Assembly: GCA_000182565.2 (NCBI GenBank)
Contig: KQ257453.1
Origin: Spizellomyces punctatus DAOM BR117
Taxonomy: Eukaryota
Reading direction: 5' to 3' (one strand)
DNA: 64,000 nucleotides
The notes under the pieces were generated by a model. That model saw only the letters and a list, made by a program, of their open reading frames with translations. It did no database searches and was not told the origin of the DNA. This document shows, piece by piece, positions 1 through 60,211 of this stretch; the first letter of the stretch is position 1; each line of letters starts with the position of its first letter. Both the position numbers and the translations under genes were made by a program.

Positions 1-2
1 AA

Positions 3-440
3 TGGAACCTCGACTCTACGGAGAGGGCTCCAGGGGCCTTCGAAGCCCAATTAAAAGACGCGGAACGTTTCCACGTCGATCTCAAGCGACCCAAACCCGT
101 GGTCTGGGCCCTAATCAACATTCTACGACACTTCCATCAAGCCTTCAGCTATGAGGGTCATCTCATAGGGAACTACACCAAGATTCCTTATGCGCCTCGA
201 TTTATCTCGGCTCCGCCACCCCTTTCGAGGCCACGGTCGTACTCTCCGTTGGAGCGGACAGCCCTCGAGACGGAGCGAGACACCATGATGGGGCTTCAGA
301 GGTGGAAACGAACCACCGAAGTAACCTTCGCCAGCGATCCTGTTATCATTCGCTATGCAGACAAACCCCCGCGCGTAGCCTTCGACTATCGCCGAGCCAA
401 CGACTGCATGGCCTGGGATCCATATCCCTTTCCCATCATG
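3..440 (+). mobile_element. Ty3/Gypsy-type pol fragment (linker plus N-terminal part of reverse transcriptase), truncated at ~440
   Basis: Frame is open from position 3. It reads RPRSYSPLERTALETERDTMMGLQRWKRTTEVTFASDPVIIRYADKPPRVAFDYRRANDCMAWDPYPFP, which matches the Gypsy RT start consensus (RPYR.SP.E...ASP.V....K.R...DYR.LN....D.YPLP). The similarity ends at DPYPFP and no YxDD motif follows. Confidence 0.75.
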
Positions 441-1373
441 CTTGATTTGGATGTCACTGGGCAATTGTTCGACTATTAGGTCGAAATGCTGGTCAGCGGG
501 ACATTCTATGTTTGCCCGGTCGCCGTATGCGAGGCGCTGGAGATGAGTTTTGTGGTCAATGAACGCGAGAAAGCTGCAAAATTCTTTGGGGTTCACGTGG
601 CAGTGCACATATTCGGTTTTGCGCTTGGACTCGGTTAGGGGATCTCGGAACTCTCGAAGCAGTTCCTCTTTCCACCTTTTCCAGGTCCATGAGCGAGTTT
701 CCTGGGCTTCCAGAGTGTAAAACCAAGCGTCAGCAGGGGTTTTCTCGGCTATCATGGCTGGTAGGAGCTGTACCATCCTGGCATCCGACGTTGCGCTAAC
801 GTTTTGAAGAAGTTGGACTTTGTTAAGCCATTCTTCAACGTCTTGGTTTCTTCTGCCCGTAAACTCGGGTACGTCCTTTGCTTTCAAGGAATCGACCTTG
901 GTGTCGCTGGCCCACGGGGCCGCTGGCACTTGGATTGGAGGCACCGCACCTGAAAAACTTGGTTCGGTACGCTCCCTTGGTGTGTCCGCCGTTTCCCACG
1001 GGGTTGCGGACCGTTCTCTTGTAGCTCGTGCTATGGGAGGTTGTCCAGGCAGCGGGCGATGCGCTAGGGCTTCTAAGGCTCGTGCGAGGCGCTCATCCGC
1101 CGCTGTCTGACGTTCGGAAAGCCTATGAAGCTGTTCCGTAAGGTTTTGAGTTGCCAACTGCGTTGCAGCAGTCGAGCGGGCAATGTCTTCTTTTAACGCT
1201 GCCACTTCAGAGGCCATCGTGGCCAAGTTAGGGGCTTCCGGTTCGACGGAAGTGGTCCCTGAACGCCTTGGGCGTGTTGCGGGAGGGACTTCGACGTCCT
1301 CCGCAGGACCCTGACTACGAGTCTGGATCACAGGTGAGCGGCCTCGCGTTGGAGAGCGTTCGACCGGCATCAT
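437..1373 (-). CDS. gag: Retrotransposon Gag-like protein (Ty3/Gypsy), C-terminally truncated at a rearrangement junction
   Basis: Begins about 140 bp after the PBS. Has an N-terminal coiled coil and capsid-like motifs VPEFTGRRNQDVEEWL, AWFYTL and TWKRWKEELLREF. The ORF-track extension below ~437 is just the antisense of the RT fragment. Confidence 0.8.
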
Positions 1374-1510
1374 TCTCAGTTTCGTGAAGTCTGTTTCCGA
1401 AACGAGAGAAAAGGTTTCCGAGTAGCTACCTGAGCGGATCTCGGTTTGCGCAAGAGTTTCGGTACGACCGAATAAGGATTTCAGCTGAATTTGAGAGGGG
1501 AAGGCAGTTC

Positions 1511-1527
1511 GTCGCGCTTCTCCACCA
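1511..1527 (-). promoter_or_regulatory. Primer-binding site complementary to a tRNA-Ala 3' end
   Basis: The minus strand reads TGGTGGAGAAGCGCGAC directly after the LTR end. Its complement ...CTTCTCCACCA gives U70-C71-C72-A73-CCA, typical of tRNA-Ala. Confidence 0.8.
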
Positions 1528-2127
1528 TGTAACGGATTTTTTGTTGGTAGACTATGGTAAAGACAACTTGGGTCTCCTAGCAGGTTGTGTGGGTGTCCGT
1601 ACTAGGAATCATAGTCTCCAAATCCTTTCTTTGGGCGTCGGTAGCGACTTGAGGGCGAGAGGCAAGGAGAGTCGGTTAGTTGTGAACCGAGCAGGATTTA
1701 GAGGCTTCGGTGCGGGTGATCAGGCCATTGAAGCGCTCTGTTAGGTTCCTGTTAACCTAGGATTGGGGTTGAGAAGCTAGTTGTGGGGATTTTTTGTCGC
1801 TACGGCTTCTGCCCCCGACTTATTTTATTGAATACATCCTTTTTATACAAGATTCTTGGATAAACTGTTAAACTAAACTAAACTAATGGGTGTCGCTGCA
1901 CCGCAACTGATTTATTGGTGGCGGTACCGATCTCTTCCTTTTCCGCACTGGCTCGGGCCTCCACAGGTTGTACGAGGCACGCTGAAATCTAATGCGCCAA
2001 TTGCCATTCTCCGAACCGGTTTTTTCGGTCGCGGTAACCCAATCGGTGGAGTTGGTCACGCGATTCGTGCTTCCCGCGTCCGATTTGGGCTTACTCGCGA
2101 TCTCTCGAAGACGTCCTCGTCGTTACA
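1528..2127 (-). mobile_element. 5' LTR (600 bp) of an LTR retrotransposon
   Basis: TG...CA ends with a perfect 7-bp terminal inverted repeat (TGTAACG 1528-1534 / CGTTACA 2121-2127). Minus-strand TATAAAA (~1841-1847) and AATAAA (~1824-1829) lie inside. The PBS is adjacent, and the Fanzor reading frame resumes exactly at 2128. Confidence 0.85.
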
Positions 2128-3186
2128 ATCCTCTGCATCGCCCGCCAAGAAGCACAAGCCATAGAGAAGGTCGATTTATGGATGCGCATCTGCAATCTAC
2201 GTACCAAGGCTTTTCGGTCTCGCCGCGATATGCAGTTTGAAGGCTCGATCACGACAGATGGCACCTCGGTGTCAGTTTACTTGAAACATCCTGAAGCTGA
2301 CAAGTATGGAAAGCGCAGCAGCGGAGGGAAGAAGTCAGCAAAGACCCTAGAAGCTGAGGTGAAGGCAGTATATGTGGAGAACAACTTGCCTGCCTGTCGA
2401 GCAGCAGAGAATGTCATCGTTATCAACCCAAACAAGCGCGACATTCTCTACTGCCAAGACAGTAATGGCATGACATTTCGCTACACTGCCAACCAGCGAG
2501 CCGTGGAGACTGGAAGCCGTCAATTTGCAAAAGAACGGCAGCAGATGAAAGCCGGCAGTATTGACCTCATAGAATCATGAATACCATCTCACAAGACGAT
2601 GAACCTCATGGACTTTACTCGCTACCTTCTCATTCGCTGTGCAGATTCGGATCATTGAAAGGAGTTCTACTCACATCCTGCCCACACGCGGTGGAAGTGG
2701 CATACATTTATAAACCATCAGAAGAGTGAATCAAACCTCATATCCAACATGCGCAACAAGTTTGGGAACTTCACCATTGTGATGGGTGATTGGAGCGATG
2801 CCAGTCGAACTGCAAGATTTCAGACCTCATCAAAGACGAAAGGTTGGCGCACCCTCTTTAAGCGCAACAGGATCAACTGCTTCCTTCTCAACGAGTACAA
2901 GACCTCATCTGTCTGCCCTCACTGTTTGGCCTCATCCGCTGACTTCCTTGAAAAAGGCTTCAAAACACGACCTCATTCAAGACCTTGGCGCCGTCGCGAA
3001 GGCAAGATTGAAAAAGTCCATGGATTGCTGGGTTGTACCAACCCTAACTGTCAGCAAGCCTGGACGATGCGCTACTGGAACAGGGACACGCTGAGCACCT
3101 GCAACATGCTGATGATCGTGCAATCAATGTTAGATGGACACGGTAGACCAGAGGTGTTCAGGAGGGGTGTTCCAGTGGTAGCGTAG
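2128..3186 (+). pseudogene. Fz1: Fanzor1 (TnpB-derived RNA-guided RuvC endonuclease), C-terminal ~350 codons, inactivated
   Basis: One frame from 2128 to TAG 3184-3186 with two in-frame TGA stops (2578, 2656). Motifs: FEGSITTDGTSVSV (WED), VIVI[N]PNKRDILY (RuvC-I, catalytic D->N at 2425), IVMGDWS, L[N]EYKTSSVCPHC (rearranged catalytic Glu at 2893 plus zinc-finger CxxC), HGLLGCTNPNC, WNRD (RuvC-III Asp at 3085) and C-terminal GRPEVF. Confidence 0.92.
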
Positions 3187-3205
3187 CGTAGACTAGTTAG
3201 ATTAA

Positions 3206-3294
3206 GGTTTCCGAACTGGTTGTCGCCGGTTCAATCCCTGGTGCGGGTGCTAGTGCCAATACCCATCGGCTCCGCACTAACAATCATACCCATC
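3206..3294 (+). ncRNA. Fanzor omegaRNA: scaffold ~3206-3279 (includes element right end/TIR) plus ~15-nt guide 3280-3294 (ACAATCATACCCATC)
   Basis: Starts 20 nt after the Fanzor stop. TGGTGCGG (3239-3246) can pair with CCGCACTA (3272-3279), GGGT...ACCC forms a hairpin, and GAACTGGT/ATCGGCTC forms a degraded stem. It ends ...GGCTCCGCAC-TA and closely resembles, from memory, the Spizellomyces punctatus Fz1 scaffold. Confidence 0.8.
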
Positions 3295-3802
3295 AAACCA
3301 AACCAACAGCGACAACTTCCAACCCTCGTGCGATGGCCAAGATTGAAGAAGAAAAACCCGTACATGCCTATTTTAACAAAATATTTCCGGAACGATGGAA
3401 CCCTCCCCATTTCTGGGGAAATGGAGGCAGTCCACTGAAGGAGCAAGCTCATCACATCTGGAAAACGTCGCTTCTCAATCTTTTGTCGTGTCTGGACTAA
3501 GCAAGAGCTGAGAGAGCTGCTGCTTTGTTGAAGATGGATCAGGTTCGTTGCTTCAGCCATTTTACACAAACGCGTCGTTCATTAACATGATACACCTTGA
3601 ATAGTTCTACTTTTAGAGTCCTAAACCGGAGTTCCATTGTCATAAAAAAAAACAAAATCGCTGATACCCAAGGGAGCGTAAACTTAACCGGTGCGTCCAT
3701 CTCAATGGAGCCGCAAACACCTGTAATCCAGACGCCAAACGTGAGTCTTTGTAGTAGTTGTTTATCATGTCAATGTAATACTCACAGTTCATTTAGGTCG
3801 GT

Positions 3803-4696
3803 ATGAAATTATCCGGATTTAAGGAAAGGTTAACGAAACGCTCGTTTGCGGATGCGTTCGACGATGATGATGATACGATCGACACTCCTACGCGCCATAC
3901 CAAGACCACCCAACTCGAAGCACCGTACAAGTCAAAAGATGAAACCCTTACTCGATATTATATTCGCTTGGCGCAGCACTGTGAGAGGACTGGACATATC
4001 ACTCGCCCCCAACTTGGATTCACGGTTCGCTGCATTACTGACACCGAGCACCAGTATCACAAGGCAGTAATGGATGTGCTCGCTGTCTACGATGAGACTC
4101 GGATGGGATGTACCTTTGGCTCCTTCTTGGAGGAAATTTACCCCAACAATACGACCAAAATGAAGAGTCTGGTAAAAGAATCCTTGATGAAACAGGCTTC
4201 CTCACAAGCTATGTCGGCGGCCTGTACGATGCTCTCTAATGGTGTAGCGGCTTTTGGTGCTATCCTTCTCGCGAGAGCATTTGGGTGGAACGTCAAGGGT
4301 GACGCAAGGTTGATGCCTAGAAATGTGGCTTTGACAGGCAGTATAACCGAAGATCACAGTGCACTCCTTGTTCGTACTCGAGAGCACCGAAATGAGAATG
4401 GGTTACTGTATATTGTTTTACCGAGTCCGTGTGTTTTGAATTCACGGTATATGACGCATGAGCGGTTTATTGAGGTGTTGGGGTGTGTTGGGTTTGGCGT
4501 GGTTGAATTCAAGTTTGCGAAACGGGTTGCGTTTTGTTTGTTTAGGAGGTGTGGTGGGGGTGTAAAGGGGATTGGGAAAGTCGAATGTAATCCTGGGAAG
4601 GAGAGGAATAATTTTTGTGTTGTTATTGATGGCAGGGCAGCTGGGATGCCAATTTGGCACATACACACTGTATATTTTGAGATAAAAGGGATATAA
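3803..4696 (+). CDS. Intronless ORF (297 aa); C-terminal ~100 aa resemble the C-terminus of the 25S rRNA adenine-N1 methyltransferase Bmt2, N-terminus unrelated
   Basis: GLLYIVLPSPCVLNSRYMTHERF...GFGVVEFKFAKRVAFCLF...CNPGKERNNFCVV matches the Bmt2 C-terminal consensus. No LDVG-type SAM motif is visible upstream. Confidence 0.55.
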   Translation: MKLSGFKERLTKRSFADAFDDDDDTIDTPTRHTKTTQLEAPYKSKDETLTRYYIRLAQHCERTGHITRPQLGFTVRCITDTEHQYHKAVMDVLAVYDETRMGCTFGSFLEEIYPNNTTKMKSLVKESLMKQASSQAMSAACTMLSNGVAAFGAILLARAFGWNVKGDARLMPRNVALTGSITEDHSALLVRTREHRNENGLLYIVLPSPCVLNSRYMTHERFIEVLGCVGFGVVEFKFAKRVAFCLFRRCGGGVKGIGKVECNPGKERNNFCVVIDGRAAGMPIWHIHTVYFEIKGI

Positions 4697-25692: not shown

Positions 25693-27818
25693 ATGGCTAC
25701 GTTGCTGATAACTTCGTTACTCCTCTTTCTATTGCGTTGCACGCAGGCTGCCGATTTGAACCTTGGAATTCCGCGGGCAGGCTTCGTTATTATCCCATAT
25801 TCAGATAAATTCGTTGCTTTTGGAGGATCACGGAGTATACTCATCACCAGTGAGTCTCGAGATAGATTTAAAGACCGCCAGAGTAAAACTCGAGCTAAAC
25901 TCATCCTGTTCTATGCTATTAGATAATGCCAGTATTCTCCAGAATGACGCTGTTCTCGCGGGCACTGGTACAGTTGTCAACTATAAAGGCTGGACGGTTT
26001 CCCAGACCATTCTGCTTCAAAATCAGCCGCTGTTGACTTTTTCCTCCTCATGCGCCCCGTACGGAAATTCTACGATGCTTTGCTCCGGTTAGTTACAGTG
26101 GATTCTACTAGTTATACAGTTGTCTAACAACACCGTAACTGTTTTACAGGGGGATTGGATCACGATCATTATTGGTCCAATACGTTTAACTTGACGGTAT
26201 ACAATACTTCAAACTTGGCTGCAATGGATATAACTCAGTACCCAATGCCAATAATTCCGACACGTTGGGATCATGGCTCTGTGATTTTGGAAAACAAACT
26301 GTACATTTTTGGTGGACGAGGGCCTGTCAACGTTACGCAACCACCCAGTAAGAGATAAGTGATGCCTTTTCAGTCTACAATAGTAAAGCTGACATTTCTC
26401 GTATCAGTTGTTGAATTTGACGACCATTATGTGATCGACTTGGCTGCGGCCCCCTACGGCGCAACAAAGATTGTGTCCACGAAAACACCTGGTCCCCGAA
26501 CGGGCTTCTGTATGGCAGCGCTGAATTCCACAGCCTATGTCTTGTACGGTGGATATCGCGAAACATCGGCAAAGTCATACTACGATGATACGTGGATTTA
26601 TCAACCCTCAACCGGATGGGTTGATGTGACGTCCCGGACACAGGGAAATCCTTCGCGACGTGTCAGCCCTGCCTGTACTACTCTGAACGGCCGTGTTTAC
26701 ATGTTTGGTGGATGGGGACCGAGTGTCAGTGGCATGAACGACGTCTGGGTCTTTGATGCTGAAATGTTGCGATGGTGGCAACTCTCAGCCGATTCCCCGA
26801 AATTGACAGGTGGTCGGCCGCAAGGACGCTACTACTGTAGAATGCATGGTGTTGGAAAACATCTCCTTATTACCGGTGGATTACGTCTGGCGCCGGCTGG
26901 TAGTGGCGTCGCGGACGACTCTGCTCTCTACATTTTCGATACTGTGGCAAATAAATGGGTGGAGAAGGTATCCGATATAGCAGATGTTACCGCCGGCACA
27001 GCTCCTCCCCCAAATAGTGTTCCTACATGGGCGATGGACGTAGGATCCCGAAAGGCCCAGACAGTAGGCATTGTACTCGGTGTGCTTGGTGGGTTGGCCC
27101 TTATAACTGGCGGAGCTTATTGGTATCTAGTGTATCGACGCAACAAATCGAACGATGGCGCTTTTACCGTTGGTCCCATGCAGTATGCCCGTAAGGATGA
27201 CCTTGGTCCCAGGGCTTTGTTGCGATCCCTTTCTGGATCGTCTCGGTCTACAGGATCTACTACATTCTCTGGGTCCTCTCGGGGCTCCAACGGTCCTGGC
27301 TCCCCAGTACCTCCTGCCCGTACGCTATCGCTACAATCAACCCAATCACGCACGACTAGCAGGCATAGTTCTGGATCAGCGACACAGCTACCTGAACCTG
27401 TCCTTGCCACACGTGCTGTAAATCCCGTCATTGTCAACCGATTCGAGTTTCCAATCAGCCCGCCTGCCTATGAATCGTTGGTGGGCTCGAGCGGTCTGAT
27501 GCTTCCAGAACTCTCTGCTGGCAAGAGTAGCGAAGACGATGCGGCAACAAAACTGAAAGGGCTTCCGCACGTTGGAAGCACATACTTTAAGCCAGGAATA
27601 CATCAAGAAAACCTCTCAGGAGACGAAATTGTTATTGCACCCGGAGATACAGTCTATGTCCGGTATGTTTCCGCTGCTTTCACTTGTATCTTTGATATTT
27701 ATACTTAAACGTTTTTCCATAAAGGGAACTTTATGCTGATGGTTGGGCCTGCGGCTGGAACGCAACCAGTCAAAAAGACGGCTACTTCCCTTACAAATGC
27801 GTTAAAGGGACCTCATAG
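25693..27818 (+). CDS. Type I membrane protein: signal peptide, Kelch repeats, TM helix, Ser-rich tail, C-terminal SH3
   Basis: Signal MATLLITSLLLFLL. Kelch GG motifs KLYIFGGRG, YVLYGGY, VYMFGGWG, LLITGG. TM VGIVLGVLGGLALITGGAYWYLV. SH3 DEIVIAPGDTVYV..YADGWACGWNATSQKDGYFPYKCV. Confidence 0.88.
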
Positions 27819-28064: not shown

Positions 28065-28136
28065 GCCTTCTTAGCATAGTGGTAGTGCGTCTGCCTCGTA
28101 AGCAGAAGGTCGCGTGTTCGATCCACGCAGGAGGCA
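28065..28136 (+). tRNA. tRNA-Thr(CGT)
   Basis: GCCTTCT...AGGAGGC-A cloverleaf with anticodon arm TCTGC-CTCGTAA-GCAGA and T loop TTCGATC. Confidence 0.95.
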
Positions 28137-28720: not shown

Positions 28721-31354
28721 ATGCTTACGCACATTACCGATTACAATCATCTCATGCCTGTGCTATCGAAACAGACCCGCTCTGACAGCGGTATAGCGGA
28801 TAATATCCCCATTGTCGACTTGCGAGGTGCGACTCCCTCGTCCAACACGGGGTCCAACCTTCAATCGTCCATTATTCAGTCCCTTTCCAACAAGAATGTA
28901 GTGTTTCGGCACAAGGGTGTTGATACACTGGTGCGATCCATTCCTACCATGGTGCTGTATGATGACAAGGGATTGGAGATTTTTGATCAAATCACCTATG
29001 TGGAGGATTATTATCTGACTGAGGCTGAGATTGACGTGTTGAGAAGTCACGCTGAGGAATGCGTGAGCAAAATCGTACAGGATGGAAGCGTGCTTGTGGA
29101 GTTGGGCTGTGGGTGAGTCAAGGTGCCATGCTGAGGCACGTGGTTTGATGCTGACGTGTTCCTACCCAGATCAATGCGCAAGACAAAGTACATTCTTTCA
29201 GCGATTGAGCGGCAAAAAAAGCGGAATGTCACGTATTATGCTGTTGATCTCTCAGAGTCGTCCTTGCGTGAATCGCTTGGTCCGTTGACTCTGGCGTTTT
29301 CCACAATCAATTTTGTTGGGCTGCTTGGCTGCTACGAAGACTCTATCCAATATATTCGGGACACGATCCCGTCATCAACACCAAAGACATACCTCTGGCT
29401 GGGATCATCTATTGGAAATCTCAACCGGACCGAGGCTGCCGCCTTTTTGAGACACATTTGTGACGATGGCATGCAAATCGGCGACACGTTCCTTTGCGGG
29501 ATTGATCGCCGAAATGAACCACAAAAGATTGCTTTGGCGTATAATGACACGAAAGGTGTAACAAGAGAGTTTATTCTCAACGGCTTGGATCATGTGAATG
29601 CAATTTTCGGTGCACATGTCTTTGACCGATCGGCATTTGAGTATGTCTCCATTTACAATCAAGTGGAGGGACGGCATGAAGCGTACTATCGCTCATTGAA
29701 GCAGCAGGCGATCGGCTTGCGAGATAACAGCGCCAGCAATTTCACTGTCAATTTGGAGGAGGGCGAGCTGATCAACGTAGAGTACAGCTACAAGTACGCG
29801 CGGGAGGAGGTCGATGAGTTGGTGGAACAAGCGAGATTCTACAATGTTGGCAAATGGACAGATGCAAAAGAAATGTACGATTTGCACTTGTTCCAGAAGC
29901 CTCCGTTCTTTTTTGAACAGCATGTTCTCGATGCGCCTTTGGTTCCCACCACTCTGGAGTGGGAGGAACTCTGGAAAGCCTGGGATACCGTCACATTGAC
30001 AATGATCCCGTCAAGTGCACACCATCTTCGTCCCATCGCTCTTCGACATCCGTACATATTCTATTTGGGTCACATCCCAGCGTTCCTCGACATTCAACTG
30101 ACGCGCGCCCTCAACACGAACTTTACACCGCCGGAACACTATCCTCGCATCTTTGAACGTGGGATTGACCCGGATATGGATGATCCCACTATTTGTCATC
30201 CTCATTCTGAAGTCCCCAATGAGTGGCCACCCGTGGAAGAAATTCATGCCTACAAGGAGCGAGTAAGGGAGAGATTGCGAGGTCTTTTACAAAAGATCGA
30301 AAAGGGAGAGAAATTAGACAAAAGGGTCCTCCGTGTCATATGGATGTGTTACGAGCATGAGGCGATGCATTTGGAGGTGAGTTACCATGAGGCGGATTTG
30401 AAGATGAATAATGCTGATGGTGTGGTACTCTTAGACATTGCTGTACATGCTGGTCCAAGCGCCAACAACCCTCCCTCCACTTCATTTTCTTTCACCGATT
30501 ATAAGCACTTCCGCATCTCACAAACCCAAGCAACCGGCACGGATGCTATCGTTTACAGAACCTGATACCATTCAGACCGGTATTTACGATCCCGAAAGTC
30601 AAGACAAGGACGACTCCACACCGTTGCCGTCAGTCTTTGGTTGGGACAATGAGAAACCTGTTCGGAGTTACAGTGTCAAGCCTTTTGAGATTCAGAACCG
30701 AATGGTCACCACTGCCGAGTGGATCGAGTTCCTTGATAGTATGGACTGGGCCGAAGATCTTATTCCAGCCAGCTGGGGTATTGCGGAGCCTGTTAACCCT
30801 GATCGCCCCATCTATTGCACCAAAACGCCGTTTGGTCTCATTCCAACCGATCGGACTCCACACTACCCGGTCGCGGTCTCCAACGACCAAGCTCTTAAAT
30901 ACGCCAACATTAAAGGAATGCGTCTTCCCACCGAGGTAGAACTCCGCTATCTTCGCCTCAAAGAGATGAGCACTCATAAGCTGCGGGGCAATTACGGATT
31001 CCGGTCGTGGGTTGCAAAGGGTGTGGAAGAGGGCCAAGACGGCCCCGTCATTGGGGATTTATGGGAATGGACAGGGACGCTGTTTGATCGCAGCGAGGAG
31101 GATGGATACATTAAAAGCGAAGTGTATCCAGGATACTCTAGTGACTTTTTGTAAGTCCTATTGGTTTTTCAACTGTTGCAAAATGTTTCTCTAACCGGGG
31201 AATTCAACTTTGTAGCGACGGGAAGCATAATATCCTATTGGGCGGCTCATGGGCCACTGTGCCGCGCATTGCCGAGCGCGAGAGTTTTGTCAACTGGTAC
31301 CAGAGGGGATATCCCTATGTGTTTGCTGGCTTCCGGTTGGCGAGGAGTTTGTAA
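28721..31354 (+). CDS. egt1: Ergothioneine biosynthesis protein 1 (histidine N-methyltransferase fused to DinB/FGE-type sulfoxide synthase)
   Basis: EgtD part: IPTMVLYDDKGLEIFDQIT..YYLTEAE, LVELGCG, LWLGSSIGNL, AYNDTKGVTREFILNGL. EgtB part: LRHPYIFYLGHIPAF, FERGIDPDMDDPTICHPHSEVP, HEAMHLE, FGWDNEKP, LWEWT, YPGYSSDF, NWYQRGYPY. Three introns. Confidence 0.95.
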
Positions 31355-33230: not shown

Positions 33231-33302
33231 GCCTGCTTAGCATAGTGGTAGTGCGTCTGCCTCGTAAGCAGAAGGTCGCGTGTTCGATCCACGCAGCAGG
33301 CA
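33231..33302 (+). tRNA. tRNA-Thr(CGT), second copy
   Basis: Identical to 28065-28136 except at acceptor pair 5:68 (GCCTGCT/AGCAGGC). Confidence 0.95.
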
Positions 33303-33775: not shown

Positions 33776-36700
33776 ACCAAATTTGTGGGTGAGATTTTCT
33801 GTAATATATTCACAAATCATAGGTTACTTACTCGAGGATATCTCGAGAAGCAGGTTTCAAAAGGTAACCGTCTGCACCCGCTTGCATACATTGTACATAG
33901 TCTTCGTGGAGCTGTAATGAGGATTAAGCAACGGGCAATGTTAGTCAGCTACCAACCCTCAAGCAGAAAGTCCATGACAGATGCGCTCGTCGGTCGTATT
34001 GTCCCGAGTAAAGCAAGTTACATACCGCGTTGGCTGTCATGGTAATCACAATGGGTCGAACCTTATCCGGGTACAGCTCCATAATCGCTCTCGTGGCAGT
34101 TAACCCATCCATAACGGGCATACAAACATCCATAAAGATAATGTCCACCAGAGTTCCTTTTTGATAGCACTCGGCTAGCATGTCGAGGCACATTTGGCCG
34201 TCGTGCGCGACGAGTGGGACTTCTCCGGTGATTCGGGAGAGGAGTTTGGCAACGGCTTTCTGATTAATTAGATTGTCTGTGTCGATGGAAAGATTATGAG
34301 TATATATGTGTGATGGTTATGCTCATTTTTTAACCTTTCACGTCCCTACCTTCGACGAGCATAATTTTACTTTTCCATTGTTGACCGTTGGGATGGAGGA
34401 GTTGCACATCTGGTATGGTCCTCTGAGCTTTTGATCGCCGGGCTGTTGCGTGTCCAACCGGTGCTGGTCCTAATTGTAGCAAGATGTGGGATAATTCATC
34501 TTGCAGCCTTTTCGTCTTTATCGGATCTGTTACTGCTATGACTTTCTCCGGAATAAGCCGATGTCGTATTGTTTCCATCTTTTCCCTTGACACGACAATG
34601 ACCACAGGCATCTTTTCGGAAATTTTACATAATGCTTCATCATTTTCTTTCTGTTCAAGGTCGACATCTAGAATCACCGCAGCGAGGCCACCCTGTTCTA
34701 CTAATTGGATCGCTGTCGGAAGATGCATAGTGTCGACTGGGATACCTCCGATGGCTTCTACAGCAGCATGGACGACCTCATATGTTCGATCCCATGCGCT
34801 CACAATCAATATACGCTTGTTATCAATTCGAAGGGGTGAGATCATGGGCGGTCCATCGTCGAATCCTGTCATATCGGCCAGGAACACGGCGGTAAAGTAA
34901 AAGGTTGATCCTTTGCCGATTTCAGATATAATACCGACATCCCCGTTCATCATATTAACCAGCTGGCGGACAATGGATAAACCTAGCCCTGTTCCACCAT
35001 AATGACGACTCGTACTCGCTTCAGCCTGCGCAAACTCTTTGAATAGTTTTCCTTGGTTTTCTTTGGATATTCCGATGCCGGTGTCTGTCAGGAGGAATCT
35101 TAGGGCCACTTGACCTTGCCCATCCGTTGTAGGCGAACCAGTATATTCGGCATCCCTCTCTACTCGTAGGAACACAGATCCTTTTTGTGTGAATCTGCAG
35201 AAAATTGACAAACGTTACAATTGAACAACCCCATTCAGGCGTGATGTGCTATGAGACTTACTTGACGGCATTGGTAAATAGGTTAATAATGATTTGCCTC
35301 AATCTCAACGGGTCGCCTTTCACCAATGGATTAATGGTCGGATCCACGTATCCACCGACCCGAAGCCCCTTTTTATGGGCTTGAGGTGCCATTAGATCTA
35401 ACACATCTTCGATCTGTGTGGCCAAGTTGAACGGTATCGTTTCTAGATGCATTTCTCCGGCTTCCAGTTTTGCCAAGTCTGAAGAAAGGTTTATATTAGC
35501 AAGTGGCGAGCATCGCAATGGTATCTCCAGCTAATACCAACCAAGAATGCTGTTGATCAGCGACAGCAGGTTATCATTGGAGGTTCGGATAGTTTGCAGC
35601 AAATCCAGTTGCTCTGCCGACAAATCCATCTCCAACAATAGATTGATCATCGTAAAGGTCGCAGCTAATGGGTTCCTAATCTCGTGTCCAACCTGCCGCA
35701 CCCATGAACTCTTGTGCTGAGACTCAATCTCCGCTTGTTTTTGCAGTGATATATCTTGGAAGACGCCGATAACCCGTTTTGGTGTGTGATCTCTTGCTTT
35801 TGGTTTCACTAAAAGTGATCTCAATGCAATATATCGGAGCCTCTGGTTGTCAGCGAGAGGACCAGGGGTGACTCGGAAAGTGATATCAATGGGTGATTTT
35901 TGACGCTGTGCAAAAGCCTTGGCGACGGCTTGTTGATCTTCCGGAGCGACCACCTGCAACCAGGTTGTAGGATCATCTTCGAGTTCCATGGCAGATATGC
36001 CAAAGAGCTTAACAAAGGCAGCTGACATGTGTACCCATTTTTCAGGCAACACACCAGCATCGTCATTTGGTGGGGGACTCAGAAGGGAGCTATATTCACC
36101 CGGGGGGAGGATCTCGAGGATAAAGAAGGCATCCTGCGTTGTATCCGTCACCTGTCGAAATTTGTCCTCGCTAGCGCGGAGACTTGCTTCAGCACGTTCA
36201 AGTGCTTCCACCTTGTCTGCCAAGTCCTGATTAATTCCCTTCAGATTGATCTCTTTTTCGACCAGCGTAGATACAAGTGAATTTAAGGAATATGACAGCC
36301 GGGCGATTTCATCATTTCCGTGGACAACGGGAATTTGCGGCATCGCCGATCGTTTACGGATATTATCAGCGGCCCGAGAGATGGCCAGTAGTGGCGCCGT
36401 TGTGATGTGAGCAACGGTGTAGGAAGCTCCCACAAGGATAATGGCAAAGCCAAGATGAGCTAGTCCTAAAATCAACACCAGGCGATTTGGTGCCGCGAAT
36501 GCAGTCGCTGTTGATTGTCGAACGAGGATGCTCCAGTTCATATTTATGCCTTCGATACCGCTGCATTGGCTGAATCCTGTGAGATACTGAACGCCTGATG
36601 GCCATCGCTCTACTCTCCATCCGGTGTGGCCAGCTCTGGCTAACATCAACGCAGAGTCGGGAGATTGTGAAATCCTGTAGATGGCAAAAATTCAGACAAT

Positions 36701-53389: not shown

Positions 53390-56300
53390 TCGACTTGTAA
53401 GAGTCGTCATTATTCAACAGTGGGCATGGGGGAGATGTTTACGGGCGAGTCTCCCCGCACGTTTGCCATGCAGAGTGCTGGGAACGGATTTCCTCTCTTC
53501 CCGAAACGTCCCGAATTGGATGACGTGGGATCTTCTAGTGAAAGTGCAGAAGCGGTAACTACCATTAGTTTGTAAAGAGTAAAGTGGCAGTGACTAATAA
53601 CATGCACGTTCGTCGACTAGAACGTTTTGTCATGCTTGCGACTGGTTTTAACTCTTGCTGATGAACTATCTCGCTACAACATTGAAAACATCCGGACAGT
53701 CAAATTCCGGTACTTTGATACACCCGGCGCGTTGCAGAGTCTGGAAACGGTCGCTCTCTTTTGTAAAGAGCTGGATGCGGCGTTACGGAACTCGTTGGTT
53801 TCGCCCCCAGATAGTCCAGATAGTCCACATATTTCTTCGAAAGGGAAAGAGCCAATCACATCGGGCACCGTCGGAGCTGAGGCCGGAATAGATGATGTCG
53901 TGGGGAGACGGTCAGCCGGACCAGAGCTTTCGGTCGTATCGTCCGTGCCGTTCCCCCGTCCTGAGTATTTATCCGCGCACGAGCAGGTCAATGCACCGTC
54001 ATCTTCCTCACTATCTTTAGTGGAGCCTCCTCTTTCAAGCGAAATGGAGCTTAGTCAAGAGGGGGTCTACAGGTGCTACACTGAGGTGGTTGCGGATCCG
54101 TCAGACGACATGGCAATCAACATAAAATTGATGGATCGCGTACGGGTAGATATCCGTATGGAGGACGGCGTCACTGGCATCGGAACGAATCTGAATACAG
54201 GTGCTATGGGATCTTTCCCATTGAGTTGTTTGGAGGTGCCGAGTGACGTGGACACGAGAGATTGGAAGCGAAGTGGGACATTGGCATCTTCGGTTCTCAG
54301 TGGAAATACTTCCGTGTCTTCAGAGTTGGCGGGCGGTGCACTGCGCGGGTACGCAGATGCACATATGCCGCCACATGTTGTTACGCAAAACTTTGTTCTC
54401 TCGCCTGTGCCAGAGGACAGACCAAGGGTCCGCAGAGAGTCCGAGCCATTGGTATCACGGTTCAATTCGGAGGATAACCAAGTGATGAATGGGGTGAGCG
54501 AGTCATCAAGGCCACCTCAGCGTTCCGACTCGCTACAGCAAAGATTGGAAGCATTGTACCAGTACCAACATGTACCAAGCGAAGCTGTTTCGGAACCGTT
54601 ACCGCAACCCACGCAACATCAAATTCCTATGCGGGTAGCTTCTGTGCAACCACGTCCACAGCAAGCTTCAGGGCCACCGGTGCCTGCAAAAGACCATCCG
54701 TCAGCTGAACCCTCGACAGCACCAGCGATGATCCATGTACCTGGACCATCCAGACCCGGACTTACCCGGGCAGCGACAAAGCCTCTTTCGGCTCAAGTAA
54801 TTGAGAAACGCAAATTCGCTCGTCAAGTCATTGCCGAACTATATGAGACAGAAAAGAACTTTATGGAGGGAATGGAAGTACTGATAAATCAATTCATGTA
54901 CCCTCTCGCCCACGCATCCTCGAGCGAAGAAACGACTATCACCAAGGTTGAGCATTCCACACTGTTTCGTAATATTCCCGGGTTGCGAAATTTGAGCAGG
55001 AAGATTTGCGAGTTGTTGAAGGCAGCTATGGCTAAGGCGGAGGCAGATGAGGAAGGCGACGTGGGAGGAGGCGCTGTAGCAGCTGTCGTCAATGTGTTTT
55101 TGGTGAATGTAGAGTTTGAGGAATGGTCGACATACGTGCGGTACATGGAAGGGTACTCACATGCGAAGCAGACATTTGCACAACTGAAGGAGCGTCCAGA
55201 GTTTAGCGAAGTACTTGATGTGCGTGCTTACGGATCAGAGTTTGCATATTGGTTTATGGTTTGGAAACTCAATTTCATTGTCATTTTAGAAACTCGAGAG
55301 TGCAAAGGAATGCAATCGATATACGTTTGAACACTATATGATCCTACCGGTGCAGCGAATCGGGCGGTATCACTTACTGTTGGGCAGACTCAAGAAGGTG
55401 ACGGACGAAGAAGATCCAGTTCACCAGTCGTAAGTTTGTCAAAGGTTGGGTTCAGTTATTGTACACCAACCCTGATTATGCGTATCAGTATTGAAACAGC
55501 AGAACAGTATATGAAGCAAATCGGGGATGTACTGGAAAGTGTTCAAAAGCAGGAGGAAGAGCTCCGTAGAGTGTTTGAAGTGTATGAAGCGATTGAGGGA
55601 TGTCCGGTATGTGAACAAACGCCACTATTCGACGTCTCCAAAACTCTACATCAACTCATTCTGATACTATGTAATAGCCGGATATCATCTCAGCATCTCG
55701 CCGTCGTTTGCTGTCATCTTTCGAGGTTGATGAGCTCTTTTCCGGGCGCAAACTCCACATGCACGTCTTTAGCGACTGTTTCTTGCTGTCAACCCGCAAT
55801 CGCTCTACGTCATCTGCATCCCTACAGCACACGGTATCCTCAGCAGCTTCGCTTGCCAATACCTGGAAAAATCGGAATAAAGATAAAGACAAGGACAGAA
55901 GCAGGAAAGAAAATCAAAAAGAGTTTACATTTGTTGCTCGTGTTGAATTGCGCGATGTCGAAGTTCAAAGCGTTGGAAATGTTGAGGATGGACTTGCTGG
56001 GTTCCCAGAGCTATCCCCATATCTACAATTGAGCGGTGGAAATAGTGGACGTGTTGCGGTATTACGACATATACCCGGCGGTGGAACGTTTGAAAGACAC
56101 TCAAAAATCGTTGGTCTACCTTTGATCTCAGCCACCGACCATGAGCGAATTCCTGTCCCTCCTTCCCACCGCCGGAGCATAGACTCCTCCTCTTCGTCTC
56201 TCTCCTCACCCTCCTCACCATCGAACCTCTCCCGCCATCCGTCCACCTCGTCTGGCGGATCAACTTTTGGTCACATGAACCTTAGCCGTCGAGGTACAGC

Positions 56301-58111: not shown

Positions 58112-60211
58112 ATGAGGTTCTCGGTTCTTACAACCGTCCTCCTCGCCGTATCCAGCACGCAGGCTCGGCCTCTGAATAACCAACGGCGACATGAAGTAGC
58201 TACCTCGCCAACGCCGACTGGTCCGCCGTCTGGGACGCAATCAACCTCACCAGGTGGGGACCCACCAGCGGTGCCGCCAGCGACTGTACCAACGGCGCCT
58301 CAACCCGGTACGCCACAACCTGGAAACGTAGCAGGCGAAATTGAAAAAGCCAAAGCCGCCATCCAAGATGCTGCTGCCACTATCGCAAAGCTTTTAGATG
58401 GGTTTGTAGCTGGTAACAAGGCACCAAACAATGGCGCACCTGCACCCGCACCTGCTGCAACTATCAATGGGGCCGACCCCCCCGTCGCTACCACGCCTGC
58501 CGGTGCTAGCGATCCCGCAAGAAGTCCTTCAGGGCCCGCAACGCAGATCCCACCTCCTGTAACTCCAGGCGGACCCAATCCTCCTGCCCCGGAGATCCCA
58601 CCTCCTGTAACTCCAGGCGGACCCAATCCCCCCGCTCCAGGAGACACCACCGGTACTCCTGCCAACGTCCCAAAAGACGCCCCCAAAGCTACCCCAGGAG
58701 AGACCACCGGTACTCCTGTCGACGTCCCTAAAACCCCGGACGCCCCCAAAACTGCCCCAAGCCCCGGAGGTACTGGCGACAGCCCAAAAACTCCACAGAC
58801 CCCACCTCCTGGAGGTAATAAAAATGGAACCGAAACTGGAGCTCCAAAAACAGGCGGGGATAAAAAGACTCCTGATGCTGGAACTGGGAAAAAGGAGACC
58901 GGAGCTGCAAAAACGGGCGATGGTAAGAAGACTCCTGATGCTGGAACTGGGAAAAAGGAGACCGGAGCTGCAAAAACCGGCGGTGATAAGAAGACTGGAA
59001 CTGGGAAAACGGACACTGGAGCTGCAAAAACGGGCGATGGTAAGAAGACTCCTGATGCTGGAACTGGGAAAAAGGATACCGGAGCTGCAAAAACGGGCGA
59101 TGGTAAGAAGGCACCCGATGCTGGAACTGGAGCAAAGAAAGGAGACGAGACCGCAGGAAAGACAACCGATACTGGGGCAGGAAAGGCCAAAACTCCAGGC
59201 GCAAAGATTCCGCTTCCGCCTGCTGGCACCAATTCGACAGGTGCCCCCGCTAGCCAGGAGACTGCTGCTACTCCTACCACTCCTGGTAAAAAAACCCAAC
59301 CCGTTACTATAACCGGAACCCCGGAGGAAATTCAAAAGAAAATCGATGCCAGTATCGCTACCGTCACCGGTAAGGGAGGAGCTGCCCAAGGCGGCGGAGC
59401 GAAGAAAGGCGGAGCGAAAAAAGCTGGAGATGCTAAAGCTGGAGATGCCAAAGCCGGAGATGCCAAAGCTGGAGATGCTAAAGCTGGAGATGCTAAAGCC
59501 GGAGATGCCAAAGGCCAAAAGGGAGCCAAGGGGAAAGCCAAGGACGCCGGAGATGCCAAAGGCCAAAAGGGAGCCAAGGGGAAAGGCAAGGACGACGGAG
59601 CTGCCAAGGGGAAGGCCAAAGACAATGGAGCAGCCAAGGCGAAGGCCAAAGACGGCGGAGCAGCAGCCAAAACCCCAGATGCTACCCCAGGAGCCGCCAA
59701 AGACGGTGGAGTAGCCAAAACCCCAGATGCGAAAACCCCAGGTGCTAAAACCCCCGATGCGAAAACCCCAGATGCTACGCCGGGAGCCGCCAAAGACGGT
59801 GGAGCAGCCAAGGCCCCAGGAAAAGCCAAAGAAGACACAGGAGCAGTGAACAATGGAGCAACCACCGATACCACTGAAACAACAGTAGCACCCAATCCTG
59901 ACGATAATGACGACGGAGATGGATCCAACTTTACTGCCGCTTTCCTAGCACGGCGCAATCCACAAGATCCAAAGACGACGCCTGGAGGAGCAAAGACCGC
60001 ACCTGGAGGAGCAGATAAGGCACCTGGAGGAGCAAACAAGGCACCTGGAGGAGCAAACAAGGCACCTGGAAAGGCAGAGGACAGTTCTGTAGGAACAAAG
60101 GCGAAGCCTGGAGGAGAAAAGGAGGCACCCAAGCAAAAGTCGCCAGCGCTTCCCACTCTAAAGACCCCACCTGGAGGACCAGTGGTAATAGCAAATGCAA
60201 TCGTTTACTAG
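58112..60211 (+). CDS. Secreted intronless low-complexity protein (P/G/A/K/T/D-rich) built from several tandem repeat families
   Basis: Signal peptide MRFSVLTTVLLAVSSTQA. Repeats IPPPVTPGGPNPPAP x2, TGAAKTGDGKKTPDAGTGKK x~5, AGDAK x6, AKTPD and APGGANK. Confidence 0.85.
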   Translation: MRFSVLTTVLLAVSSTQARPLNNQRRHEVATSPTPTGPPSGTQSTSPGGDPPAVPPATVPTAPQPGTPQPGNVAGEIEKAKAAIQDAAATIAKLLDGFVAGNKAPNNGAPAPAPAATINGADPPVATTPAGASDPARSPSGPATQIPPPVTPGGPNPPAPEIPPPVTPGGPNPPAPGDTTGTPANVPKDAPKATPGETTGTPVDVPKTPDAPKTAPSPGGTGDSPKTPQTPPPGGNKNGTETGAPKTGGDKKTPDAGTGKKETGAAKTGDGKKTPDAGTGKKETGAAKTGGDKKTGTGKTDTGAAKTGDGKKTPDAGTGKKDTGAAKTGDGKKAPDAGTGAKKGDETAGKTTDTGAGKAKTPGAKIPLPPAGTNSTGAPASQETAATPTTPGKKTQPVTITGTPEEIQKKIDASIATVTGKGGAAQGGGAKKGGAKKAGDAKAGDAKAGDAKAGDAKAGDAKAGDAKGQKGAKGKAKDAGDAKGQKGAKGKGKDDGAAKGKAKDNGAAKAKAKDGGAAAKTPDATPGAAKDGGVAKTPDAKTPGAKTPDAKTPDATPGAAKDGGAAKAPGKAKEDTGAVNNGATTDTTETTVAPNPDDNDDGDGSNFTAAFLARRNPQDPKTTPGGAKTAPGGADKAPGGANKAPGGANKAPGKAEDSSVGTKAKPGGEKEAPKQKSPALPTLKTPPGGPVVIANAIVY

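What the first reader, a model, noticed from the sequence alone, without database searches (positions are those of the whole stretch)
2128..3294. Eukaryotic RNA-guided nuclease locus: Fanzor1 ORF with intact omegaRNA cassette and readable guide
Seen: two ORF-track pieces (2182-2580, 2749-3186) are one frame broken by stops. It carries WED (ITTDGTSVSV), RuvC-I, GDW, the ExxTSxxCxxC rearranged catalytic Glu, a zinc finger and the NRD RuvC-III motif. A structured ~74-nt segment ending GGCTCCGCACTA follows 20 nt later, then unrelated flank. Established: in Fanzor1 (Spizellomyces Spu-1 type) the omegaRNA overlaps the element's right end and takes a ~15-nt guide from the flanking DNA. Inference: this is a genomic copy of such an OMEGA system with guide ACAATCATACCCATC, and intact paralogs or ORF-less 'ghost' copies may exist elsewhere. 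The class is known; this copy and its guide may not be annotated.
Basis: partly seen in the sequence, partly recalled or inferred. Interest (0 to 1): 0.9.

Follow-up and report, generated by a model that had tools for sequence, protein, structure and literature searches.

The report
Decayed Fanzor1 transposon copy in Spizellomyces
This is the broken rear half of a known Fanzor1 (SPu-1) transposon of the chytrid fungus Spizellomyces punctatus; its nuclease gene is dead, its guide-RNA cassette still looks whole, and the locus is ordinary for this genome.

Summary
Window 2128-3183 (+) encodes the C-terminal 358 residues of a SpuFz1-type Fanzor1: E 1e-197 to PDB 8GKH, and 81-91% identity to annotated S. 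punctatus paralogs.

The gene is dead:
- Homology starts exactly at 2128, where a separate repeat ends. That repeat is a 600-nt LTR-like unit followed by a PBS-like site and a gag-like ORF.
- About 283 N-terminal residues, including the published TAM-reading residues, are absent from the whole window.
- Two Arg codons are now TGA (2578, 2656).
- The RuvC-I catalytic Asp383 is Asn. It is Asp in 18 of 18 annotated paralogs that cover it.
- 22 of 25 listed G:C>A:T changes sit in CpG context.

The 75-nt omegaRNA scaffold (3205-3279) folds into two stem-loops. Paralog contigs diverge right after 3279, so the guide ACAATCATACCCATC is read correctly.

The flanking gene is 100% SPPG_02592, so this is strain DAOM BR117. 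Saito et al. 2023 already counted 42 Fz loci there (19 full-length, the rest partial) and 134 ghosts. No expression evidence for this copy was obtained.

Verdict: already known, low interest.

The parts
123..1373 (-). ORF (416 aa from ATG) of the neighbouring retroelement-like repeat; gag-like as a lead only
   Evidence: ORF list. No Pfam family at E <= 0.01. The three best named ESM Atlas clusters carry Retrotrans_gag, but at scores of 0.76-0.77, below the tool's 0.9 line.
1510..1527 (-). Primer-binding-site-like stretch starting TGGTGGAG directly inside the LTR-like unit
   Evidence: Read from the sequence. It matches none of the four tRNA genes of the window. That this is a PBS is an inference.
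1528..2127 (-). 600-nt LTR-like unit with 7-nt inverted termini TGTAACG...CGTTACA; its outer end at 2127 cuts the Fanzor gene
   Evidence: Sequence. Contigs identical to 1900-2127 stop at 2127 and run on with unlike sequences in X1, X5 and X11. One X5 contig of 6239 nt ends there.
2128..3186 (+). Fanzor1 pseudogene fragment, equivalent to SpuFz1 residues ~284-638 (part of WED, RuvC, zinc-finger/TNB)
   Evidence: phmmer against PDB 8gkh_P, E 1.3e-197. tblastn of four full-length paralogs: 80-84% identity, and only this one place in the window. 91% identity to SPPG_07598.
2425..2427 (+). RuvC-I catalytic position: Asn where SpuFz1 has Asp383
   Evidence: Alignments. Asp in 18 of 18 annotated S. 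punctatus paralogs that cover the column and in 62 of 63 of all homologues that cover it. All 8 X1 and 10 X5 contigs that differ from the window there read G at 2425.
2578..2580 (+). Premature stop TGA at the position of Arg435
   Evidence: Arg in 17 of 18 annotated paralogs that cover it. Other copies read C at 2578. CpG context.
2656..2658 (+). Premature stop TGA at the position of Arg461
   Evidence: Arg in 18 of 18 annotated paralogs that cover it. Other copies read C at 2656. CpG context.
2893..2895 (+). RuvC-II Glu (SpuFz1 E541), kept
2914..3051 (+). Zinc-finger cysteines (CPHC ... CTNPNC), kept
3085..3087 (+). RuvC-III Asp (SpuFz1 D606), kept
3205..3279 (+). omegaRNA scaffold: SL1 at 3213-3232 (8 predicted pairs), SL2 at 3240-3278 with an 8-nt hairpin loop at 3256-3263
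   Evidence: Fold. Other copies join the alignment at about 3208 and leave it at 3279. Only one listed difference from other copies (3207). The published architecture is a 75-nt scaffold; SL2 with an 8-nt loop is the canonical type (passages).
3250..3279 (+). Right-end inverted repeat (last 30 nt); the final TA (3278-3279) is the putative TA target-site duplication
   Evidence: Inferred from published descriptions: 30-nt IRs (PMC10432273); 33-bp TIRs and putative TA TSDs (PMC3627910). No left-end partner in the window.
3280..3294 (+). Flank-derived guide, ACAATCATACCCATC
   Evidence: Position is inferred from the boundary and the published 14-15-nt guide. No second match in the window beyond chance: 2 further hits at 3 mismatches against 1.75 expected.
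3705..4587 (+). Host gene SPPG_02592 (Bmt2-like methyltransferase paralogue, three exons), 426 nt downstream of the element end
   Evidence: Pfam PF11968. 98% hit. All three exons are 100% identical by tblastn.

Best explanation
This is a decayed copy of the SPu-1 DNA transposon of Spizellomyces punctatus DAOM BR117, the element that encodes the RNA-guided nuclease SpuFz1 (Fanzor1).

Only the right-hand ~1150 bp of the ~2.1-kb element are present (2128-3279). At 2127/2128 the gene abuts the outer end of an LTR-retrotransposon-like repeat that faces the other way. Most likely that element inserted into the gene, so the front half would lie beyond the left edge of the window.

The remaining coding sequence cannot make a nuclease:
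- It lacks the N-terminal WED/REC part that reads the TAM.
- It has two CGA>TGA stops.
- Its RuvC-I catalytic Asp is Asn.

The changes look mostly like CpG>TpG/CpA decay, as expected for a methylated, silenced repeat. That cause is inferred.

The right end still holds a canonical-looking 75-nt omegaRNA scaffold followed by the flank-derived guide ACAATCATACCCATC. If transcribed, this RNA could only act in trans, loaded by one of the intact SpuFz1 paralogs. It would direct cleavage of a CATA-plus-guide site, i.e. the empty form of this insertion site. That last step is inferred from published work on SpuFz1 and ghost omegaRNAs and is not shown here. I put it at about one in four.
For: Identity of the element:
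- E 1.3e-197 to the solved SpuFz1 chain.
- 66 homologues; the best are all S. punctatus paralogs at 81-91% identity.

Organism: all three exons of the flanking gene SPPG_02592 are 100% identical.

Truncation:
- tblastn with four full-length paralogs (627-638 aa) finds only residues ~274/281 to the end, once in the 64 kb.
- Homology begins at the codon starting at 2128.
- 1900-2127 belongs to another repeat. Its contigs end at 2127 and continue differently in three runs.
- The unit has TGTAACG...CGTTACA termini 600 nt apart, a TGGTGGAG site and an ORF on the same strand.

Decay:
- Stops at 2578 and 2656.
- D383N, against Asp in 18 of 18 annotated paralogs.
- Of the 40 best-supported differences from other copies (of 228; 188 not shown), 25 are G:C>A:T in the window, and 22 of those 25 are in CpG context.

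omegaRNA:
- Two stem-loops, z -2.76.
- Loose ends behind 3279, and a contig identical to the window's flank starting at 3251.
- This matches the published 75-nt scaffold, 14-15-nt guide and 8-nt SL2 loop (passages of PMC10432273).
- Ty3/Gypsy insertions in Fz genes are reported for this genome.
Against: - The left part of the element is not in the window, so insertion (rather than deletion or rearrangement next to an LTR) is not shown. No target-site duplication could be checked.
- The retroelement label is soft.
- The direction of the CpG changes assumes that the letter read by most other copies is ancestral. Only 40 of 228 differences were visible.
- 'Intact' for the scaffold rests on a fold and on one listed difference. 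I had no reference omegaRNA sequence, because the supplements are closed.
- Keeping all 6 scaffold CpGs is not significant against the coding part (50 kept, at least 22 lost; Fisher p = 0.18), so there is no sign of selection on the RNA.
Confidence: 0.9

Rival explanations
1. One reading: a self-contained OMEGA locus in which this ORF, once its stops are allowed for, makes a Fanzor1 nuclease that uses its own omegaRNA.
For: Strong Fanzor1 homology. E541, D606 and the zinc-finger cysteines are kept. The scaffold and boundary are present.
Against: - There is no N-terminal ~283 residues anywhere in the window.
- There are two in-frame stops.
- The catalytic Asp383 is Asn, while 18 of 18 annotated paralogs keep Asp.
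- The published TAM-reading residues (R96, Q129, Q130, N133; passage) lie in the missing part.
Confidence: 0.02
2. Ghost-like relic: the protein is dead, but the omegaRNA is still transcribed and loaded in trans by intact SpuFz1 paralogs. This would add one guide (ACAATCATACCCATC) to the cell's repertoire and guard this insertion site.
For: - The scaffold folds like the canonical type and shows one listed difference from other copies.
- The paper reports that ghost omegaRNAs from ORF-less loci work with SpuFz1 in human cells, and proposes a shared guide repertoire (passages).
Against: - No run showed an RNA of this locus. The only contig of the possible RNA run X10 over 3182-3284 has 8 differences and is another copy.
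- The paper found native omegaRNA at four loci only.
- The CpG-decay pattern suggests a silenced, methylated copy.
- There is no statistical sign of selection on the scaffold.
- The gene's own upstream region is cut off by the LTR-like repeat.
Confidence: 0.25
3. The Fanzor copy was 5'-truncated by some other event (deletion, ectopic recombination between repeats, abortive transposition). The LTR-like repeat merely abuts it, so no front half exists upstream.
For: - The window shows only one side of the junction.
- Table 5 lists joints within Fz: one X5 contig that joins 2127 to 2872, and an X10 contig that skips 2359-3009. So rearranged and deleted Fz copies exist.
Against: - The break coincides to the base with the terminus of a repeat that ends at the same base in three runs, as an insertion would give.
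- Ty3/Gypsy insertions inside Fz genes are reported for this genome.
Confidence: 0.2

Closest known systems
SPu-1 element / SpuFz1 (Fanzor1) of Spizellomyces punctatus DAOM BR117 (Bao & Jurka 2013, PMC3627910; Saito et al. 2023, PMC10432273; PDB 8GKH)
   Same: - Same genome.
- 81% amino-acid identity to SpuFz1 (SPPG_07727) over its last 358 residues.
- The same order of stop codon, ~18-nt spacer, 75-nt scaffold ending in the right inverted repeat, then flank-derived guide.
- SL2 has the canonical 8-nt loop.
   Different: - Only the 3' ~55% is present, cut by an LTR-like repeat.
- Two premature stops.
- RuvC-I Asp>Asn.
- The left inverted repeat and the CA/TAM are not in the window.
- No evidence that its RNA is made.
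Ghost Spu-1 elements (134 ORF-less loci; Saito et al. 2023)
   Same: An omegaRNA cassette without a working nuclease gene of its own, which could act only in trans.
   Different: Ghosts are ~550-nt units with both inverted repeats. Their IRs differ at seven positions, and their SL2 has a 3-nt bulge instead of the 8-nt loop (passages). This copy keeps 1 kb of recognisable coding sequence and the canonical SL2, and has no left end in view.
Bacterial IS200/IS605 TnpB-omegaRNA systems (e.g. ISDra2)
   Same: A RuvC nuclease guided by an RNA that spans the element's right end and takes its guide from the flanking DNA; the TAM lies beside the left end.
   Different: This is a eukaryotic element with terminal inverted repeats and putative TA duplications, no TnpA, and an omegaRNA that does not overlap the ORF and lacks the pseudoknot (figure-legend passage). 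Here the nuclease is in any case inactivated.

Membership tests
Fanzor1 (SpuFz1 type) protein | Significant sequence homology to SpuFz1 across WED/RuvC/zinc-finger regions | tested here: met
   E 1.3e-197 to 8gkh_P over 358 residues; 80-84% identity by tblastn with four full-length paralogs.
Fanzor1 (SpuFz1 type) protein | Complete ORF of ~630 aa with the N-terminal WED/REC part that reads the TAM | tested here: not met
   Residues 1 to ~283 are found nowhere in the 64-kb window. There are two in-frame TGA codons.
Fanzor1 (SpuFz1 type) protein | RuvC catalytic residues D383, E541, D606 | tested here: not met
   Asn at the D383 position (Asp in 18 of 18 annotated paralogs that cover it). E541 and D606 are kept.
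Fanzor1 (SpuFz1 type) protein | Zinc-finger cysteines (CxxC ... CxxxxC) | tested here: met
   C548, C551, C586 and C591 equivalents are all Cys.
SPu-1 element | [quoted passage not shown] | tested here: met
   Other copies' contigs align from ~3208 to 3279 and then run on unlike the window. A contig identical to the window's flank starts at 3251. Only 16 of 66 loose ends were shown.
SPu-1 element | Left inverted repeat preceded by CA (TAM CATA) and TA duplications at both ends | not testable with these tools
   There is no inverted copy of the right end in the window, and no genome is held for it. The right end does finish in TA.
omegaRNA of SpuFz1 | Two stem-loops: SL1 of about 7 bp, SL2 with an 8-nt hairpin loop (canonical type) | tested here: met
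   The MFE fold gives SL1 with 8 pairs (one is a closing U-G) and SL2 with an 8-nt loop, z -2.76. It was compared with text passages only. The reference sequence is in closed supplements.
omegaRNA of SpuFz1 | An 88-90-nt RNA expressed from the locus | tested here: inconclusive
   No listed run is on record as RNA. The one contig of the possible RNA run X10 over the scaffold is another copy.
LTR retrotransposon (neighbouring repeat) | LTR with TG...CA termini, PBS next to it, gag/pol ORFs, multiple copies | tested here: inconclusive
   TGTAACG...CGTTACA termini 600 nt apart and a TGGTGGAG site. The outer end is shared by contigs of three runs, and one contig is 6.2 kb long. But there is no Pfam hit, gag is supported only as an Atlas lead at 0.76-0.77, and no second LTR is in the window.

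The most novel reading that the evidence does not exclude
A Fanzor copy whose nuclease gene has been split by a retroelement and riddled with CpG decay still issues a working omegaRNA. Intact SpuFz1 paralogs load it in trans. Dead copies, not only the short 'ghost' elements, would then enlarge the genome's guide repertoire, and each would keep its own empty site under surveillance.

A further, weaker twist concerns how such an RNA could be made without the ORF. The scaffold carries GGTTCAATCCC (3228-3238), which fits the tRNA-type RNA polymerase III B-box consensus as I recall it. That might allow ORF-independent transcription.
Probability: 0.2. Interest if true: 0.45.

Novelty: already known. 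Interest (0 to 1): 0.12.

Why it matters
It matters little beyond annotation. The family (SPu-1/Fanzor1), its omegaRNA, TAM and guide logic, and the presence of partial, retroelement-interrupted and ORF-less copies in this very genome are all published.

The locus is a tidy worked example of how such an element dies: retroelement insertion plus CpG decay that hits a catalytic residue and creates two stops. Meanwhile the 75-nt RNA cassette still looks whole.

If relic copies like this one do supply guides in trans, that would bear on the open question of what Fanzor does for its host or its transposon. Nothing here shows that they do.

Tried and rejected
- **Whole-genome search for other copies.** No genome is held for this window.
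- **Pfam.**
  - No OrfB/Fanzor model hit for the two pieces, and none for the full-length paralog P0008. This copy of Pfam therefore appears not to report the family (PF26935) that the protein table lists as precomputed.
  - No Pfam hit for the retroelement ORFs.
- **tRNA and Rfam.** No tRNA gene and no meaningful Rfam match at 3187-3294, despite the T-arm-like GGTTCAATCC.
- **Other copies within the window.** None; self-BLAST returns only the locus itself.
- **Guide elsewhere in the window.** Nothing beyond chance.
- **Published omegaRNA sequence.** It is not in the main texts of PMC10432273 or PMC11423790, and the supplements are closed.
- **Metagenome scan with the 20-nt SL1 word.** Two hits (L001, L002). 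Both match over 21 nt only and are unrelated coding sequence.
- **Sequencing runs.**
  - No RNA holder is listed.
  - X10, guessed to be RNA, gave 4 laid pieces, none of them this locus's scaffold.
  - X5, X10 and X11 have no cover over 3304-3500. Neither point says anything about expression.
- **Exact look-up of six window ORFs, including both Fz pieces.** None is in the protein collection.
- **Homologue search with ORF 58112-60208.** Nothing at E <= 1e-20.
- **Selection on the scaffold from CpG retention.** Not significant (p = 0.18).
- **An A-box-like AGTGG at 3174-3178.** Rejected as a promoter hint, because 8 contigs of other copies read C at 3176. In this copy it is itself a CpG>TpG change.
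- **Earlier findings of the scan.** None for this genome.

Full report
**What is there**

Frame 1 of the + strand is open from 2038 to the TAG at 3184-3186, except for two TGA codons at 2578-2580 and 2656-2658.

Read through with X at the stops (P0001), it matches the solved Spizellomyces punctatus Fanzor1 chain 8gkh_P with E 1.3e-197. Query residues 25-382 align to chain residues 674-1032, which is the end of the protein. It matches Parasitella Fanzor1 more weakly, at E 2.9e-33.

A search of the large protein collection gave 66 homologues. The best are all annotated proteins of S. punctatus DAOM BR117:
- 81-85% identity for full-length paralogs of 627-638 aa.
- 91% for the 238-aa SPPG_07598.
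- P0008 (SPPG_07727, 638 aa) is the SpuFz1 of the structure papers. This follows from its agreement with the PDB alignment.

**Which genome**

The gene 426 nt downstream (exons at 3705-3743, about 3797-4477 and 4540-4587) is 100% identical in all three exons to SPPG_02592 of DAOM BR117, on a 1,741,622-bp scaffold.

So the window is from that strain. It is the same assembly in which Saito et al. 2023 counted:
- 42 loci with full-length (19) or partial Fz genes,
- 134 ORF-less 'ghost' elements,
- 11 Fz loci with extra genes such as Ty3/Gypsy inserted upstream of, downstream of or in the Fz gene.

They found these by translated BLAST at E < 0.05 (passages of PMC10432273). Bao and Jurka 2013 had already described SPu-1 as a ~2,100-bp element with 33-bp terminal inverted repeats and putative TA duplications (passage of PMC3627910). 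I read passages of these papers, not the whole texts, and their supplements were closed. I therefore cannot confirm that this exact locus is in their tables.

**The gene is dead**

1. *Truncation.* tblastn with four full-length paralogs finds only their residues from ~274-281 to the end, at one place in the 64 kb. True homology starts at the codon beginning at 2128 (I-L-C-I-A-R...).

2. *The junction at 2127/2128.* I laid Logan contigs of four runs on 1900-3500 at 80% likeness. The pieces laid were 183 for X1, 161 for X5, 4 for X10 and 3 for X11. Only 24 of 359 pieces, 16 of 66 loose ends and 40 of 228 letter differences were printed.
   - 1900-2127 belongs to a different repeat.
   - Contigs identical to the window there stop exactly at 2127. 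These are an X1 contig of 380 nt, an X5 contig of 6239 nt, and one X11 contig with a single difference; a second X11 contig, with 11 differences, stops there too.
   - They carry on with sequences unlike the window and unlike each other.
   - On the minus strand this unit reads TGTAACG ... CGTTACA over 600 nt (1528-2127). It is followed at once by TGGTGGAG... and then an ORF of 416 aa.
   - That is the layout of a 5' LTR, primer-binding site and gag.
   - The ORF has no Pfam hit. It has only sub-threshold Atlas neighbours that carry Retrotrans_gag (0.76-0.77). The label is therefore likely rather than shown.

3. *Stops.* Both stops stand where paralogs have Arg: 17 of 18 and 18 of 18 annotated paralogs that cover the column.

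4. *Catalytic residue.* The RuvC-I catalytic Asp383 is Asn. It is Asp in 18 of 18 annotated S. punctatus paralogs that cover it, and in 62 of 63 of all homologues that cover it. Every contig of another copy listed at 2425 reads G (8 in X1, 10 in X5). Glu541, Asp606 and the four zinc-finger cysteines are kept. The residue numbers for the catalytic site and the TAM readers come from passages of PMC10432273.

**How it decayed**

Of the 40 printed differences between the window and the letter most other copies read:
- 25 are G:C>A:T in the window,
- 6 are the reverse transitions,
- 9 are transversions.

Of those 25, 22 lie in CpG context. They include both stops and the Asp>Asn change. This is the signature of deamination of methylated cytosine, and it suggests a silenced copy. 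The argument assumes that the majority letter is ancestral, and it rests on the printed subset only.

**The RNA cassette**

The segment 3205-3279 folds into SL1 (3213-3232) and a long SL2 (3240-3278) with an 8-nt hairpin loop. The free energy is -29.8 kcal/mol, z -2.76, and 2 of 200 shuffles fold as well. The papers describe a 75-nt scaffold with two stem-loops. SL1 has seven pairs, and an 8-nt SL2 loop marks the canonical type against a 3-nt bulge in ghosts (passages).

In one search:
- Other copies join the alignment at about 3208 (loose ends before 3208 in X5).
- They leave it at 3279 (two X5 contigs run on for a median of 255 nt, unlike the window and only 0.62 alike to each other).
- The X1 contig identical to the window's flank starts at 3251. 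This is what a k = 31 graph gives if sequence becomes unique at 3280-3281.
- Only one difference inside the scaffold was printed (3207).

The element ends in TA. With the conserved CA before the left repeat and the putative TA duplication, the empty site would read CATA plus the guide. That fits the published TAM, but it is my inference, because the left end is not in the window.

**What could not be shown**

- *Expression.* No listed run is on record as RNA. The single X10 contig over 3182-3284 has 8 differences and is another copy.
- *Selection on the scaffold.* All 6 of its CpGs are kept, against 50 kept and at least 22 lost in the coding part. This is not significant (p = 0.18).
- *More copies from metagenomes.* The scan with the SL1 word returned two chance matches.

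**Verdict**

The locus is a retroelement-interrupted, point-mutated relic of a well-described element in a genome already surveyed for exactly such loci. It is not a working OMEGA system.

The only open and mildly interesting possibility is that its RNA still serves intact paralogs in trans, as ghost omegaRNAs can in heterologous tests. I put this at 0.2-0.25.

Noticed in passing
window 3196-3249 (run X5): In run X5 (kind guessed 'DNA?') the summed contig depth is 22,308 in this bin. It is 8.3 in the bin before and 67-450 over the LTR-like repeat and the coding part. In X1 the same bins are flat (141 against 59). This could mean that X5 holds RNA rich in omegaRNA scaffolds, or it could be an artefact. 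The tool warns that contig depth cannot rank parts of a gene, and the contigs are not specific to this locus.
   Followed up: no
window 3228-3238: The scaffold contains GGTTCAATCCC. This fits the tRNA T-arm / RNA polymerase III B-box consensus as I recall it. The strict pattern occurs only twice in the 64 kb on both strands. ARAGORN and Rfam find no tRNA here. One literature search listed no paper on the native promoter of Fanzor omegaRNAs.
   Followed up: partly
window 2128-3204: There is a CpG-to-TpG/CpA bias in this copy's private changes (22 of 25 listed G:C>A:T transitions). CpG observed/expected is 0.78 in the fragment, against 1.13 in the adjacent LTR-like unit and 0.89 in the window. 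This hints that the Fanzor relic is older or more methylated than the repeat that cuts it.
   Followed up: partly
window 1-479 (+) and 123-1601 (-): The first 480 bases are open on both strands. By eye the + frame (3-479) resembles the start of a Ty3/Gypsy reverse-transcriptase domain, but it has no Pfam hit. This may be a second, nested retroelement fragment next to the gag-like ORF.
   Followed up: partly
window 2127 joints (table 5): One X5 contig joins 2127 to 2872, and one X10 contig skips 2359-3009. So other rearranged or internally deleted Fanzor copies exist in those runs. The X5 loose end behind 2127 also loosely resembles the A/C-rich flank after 3285, possibly by chance.
   Followed up: no
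window 28065-28136 and 33231-33302: Two tRNA-Thr(CGU) genes about 5.2 kb apart differ at only two bases. They may mark a local duplication.
   Followed up: no
window 3705-4587: SPPG_02592 is a short Bmt2-like (25S rRNA adenine methyltransferase family) paralogue. A second S. punctatus protein annotated as the methyltransferase proper is 87% identical over only a third of the query. The Fanzor right end lies 426 nt upstream of its start codon.
   Followed up: partly
window 29156-30562: An ORF with Methyltransf_33 plus DinB_2 domains (ergothioneine-synthesis EgtD/Egt1-like exon). Other ordinary host genes are also present: Kelch repeats at 26359-27705, a HisKA/PAS/HAMP sensor at 35534-36649 (-), and RhoGEF at 53627-55327.
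   Followed up: no
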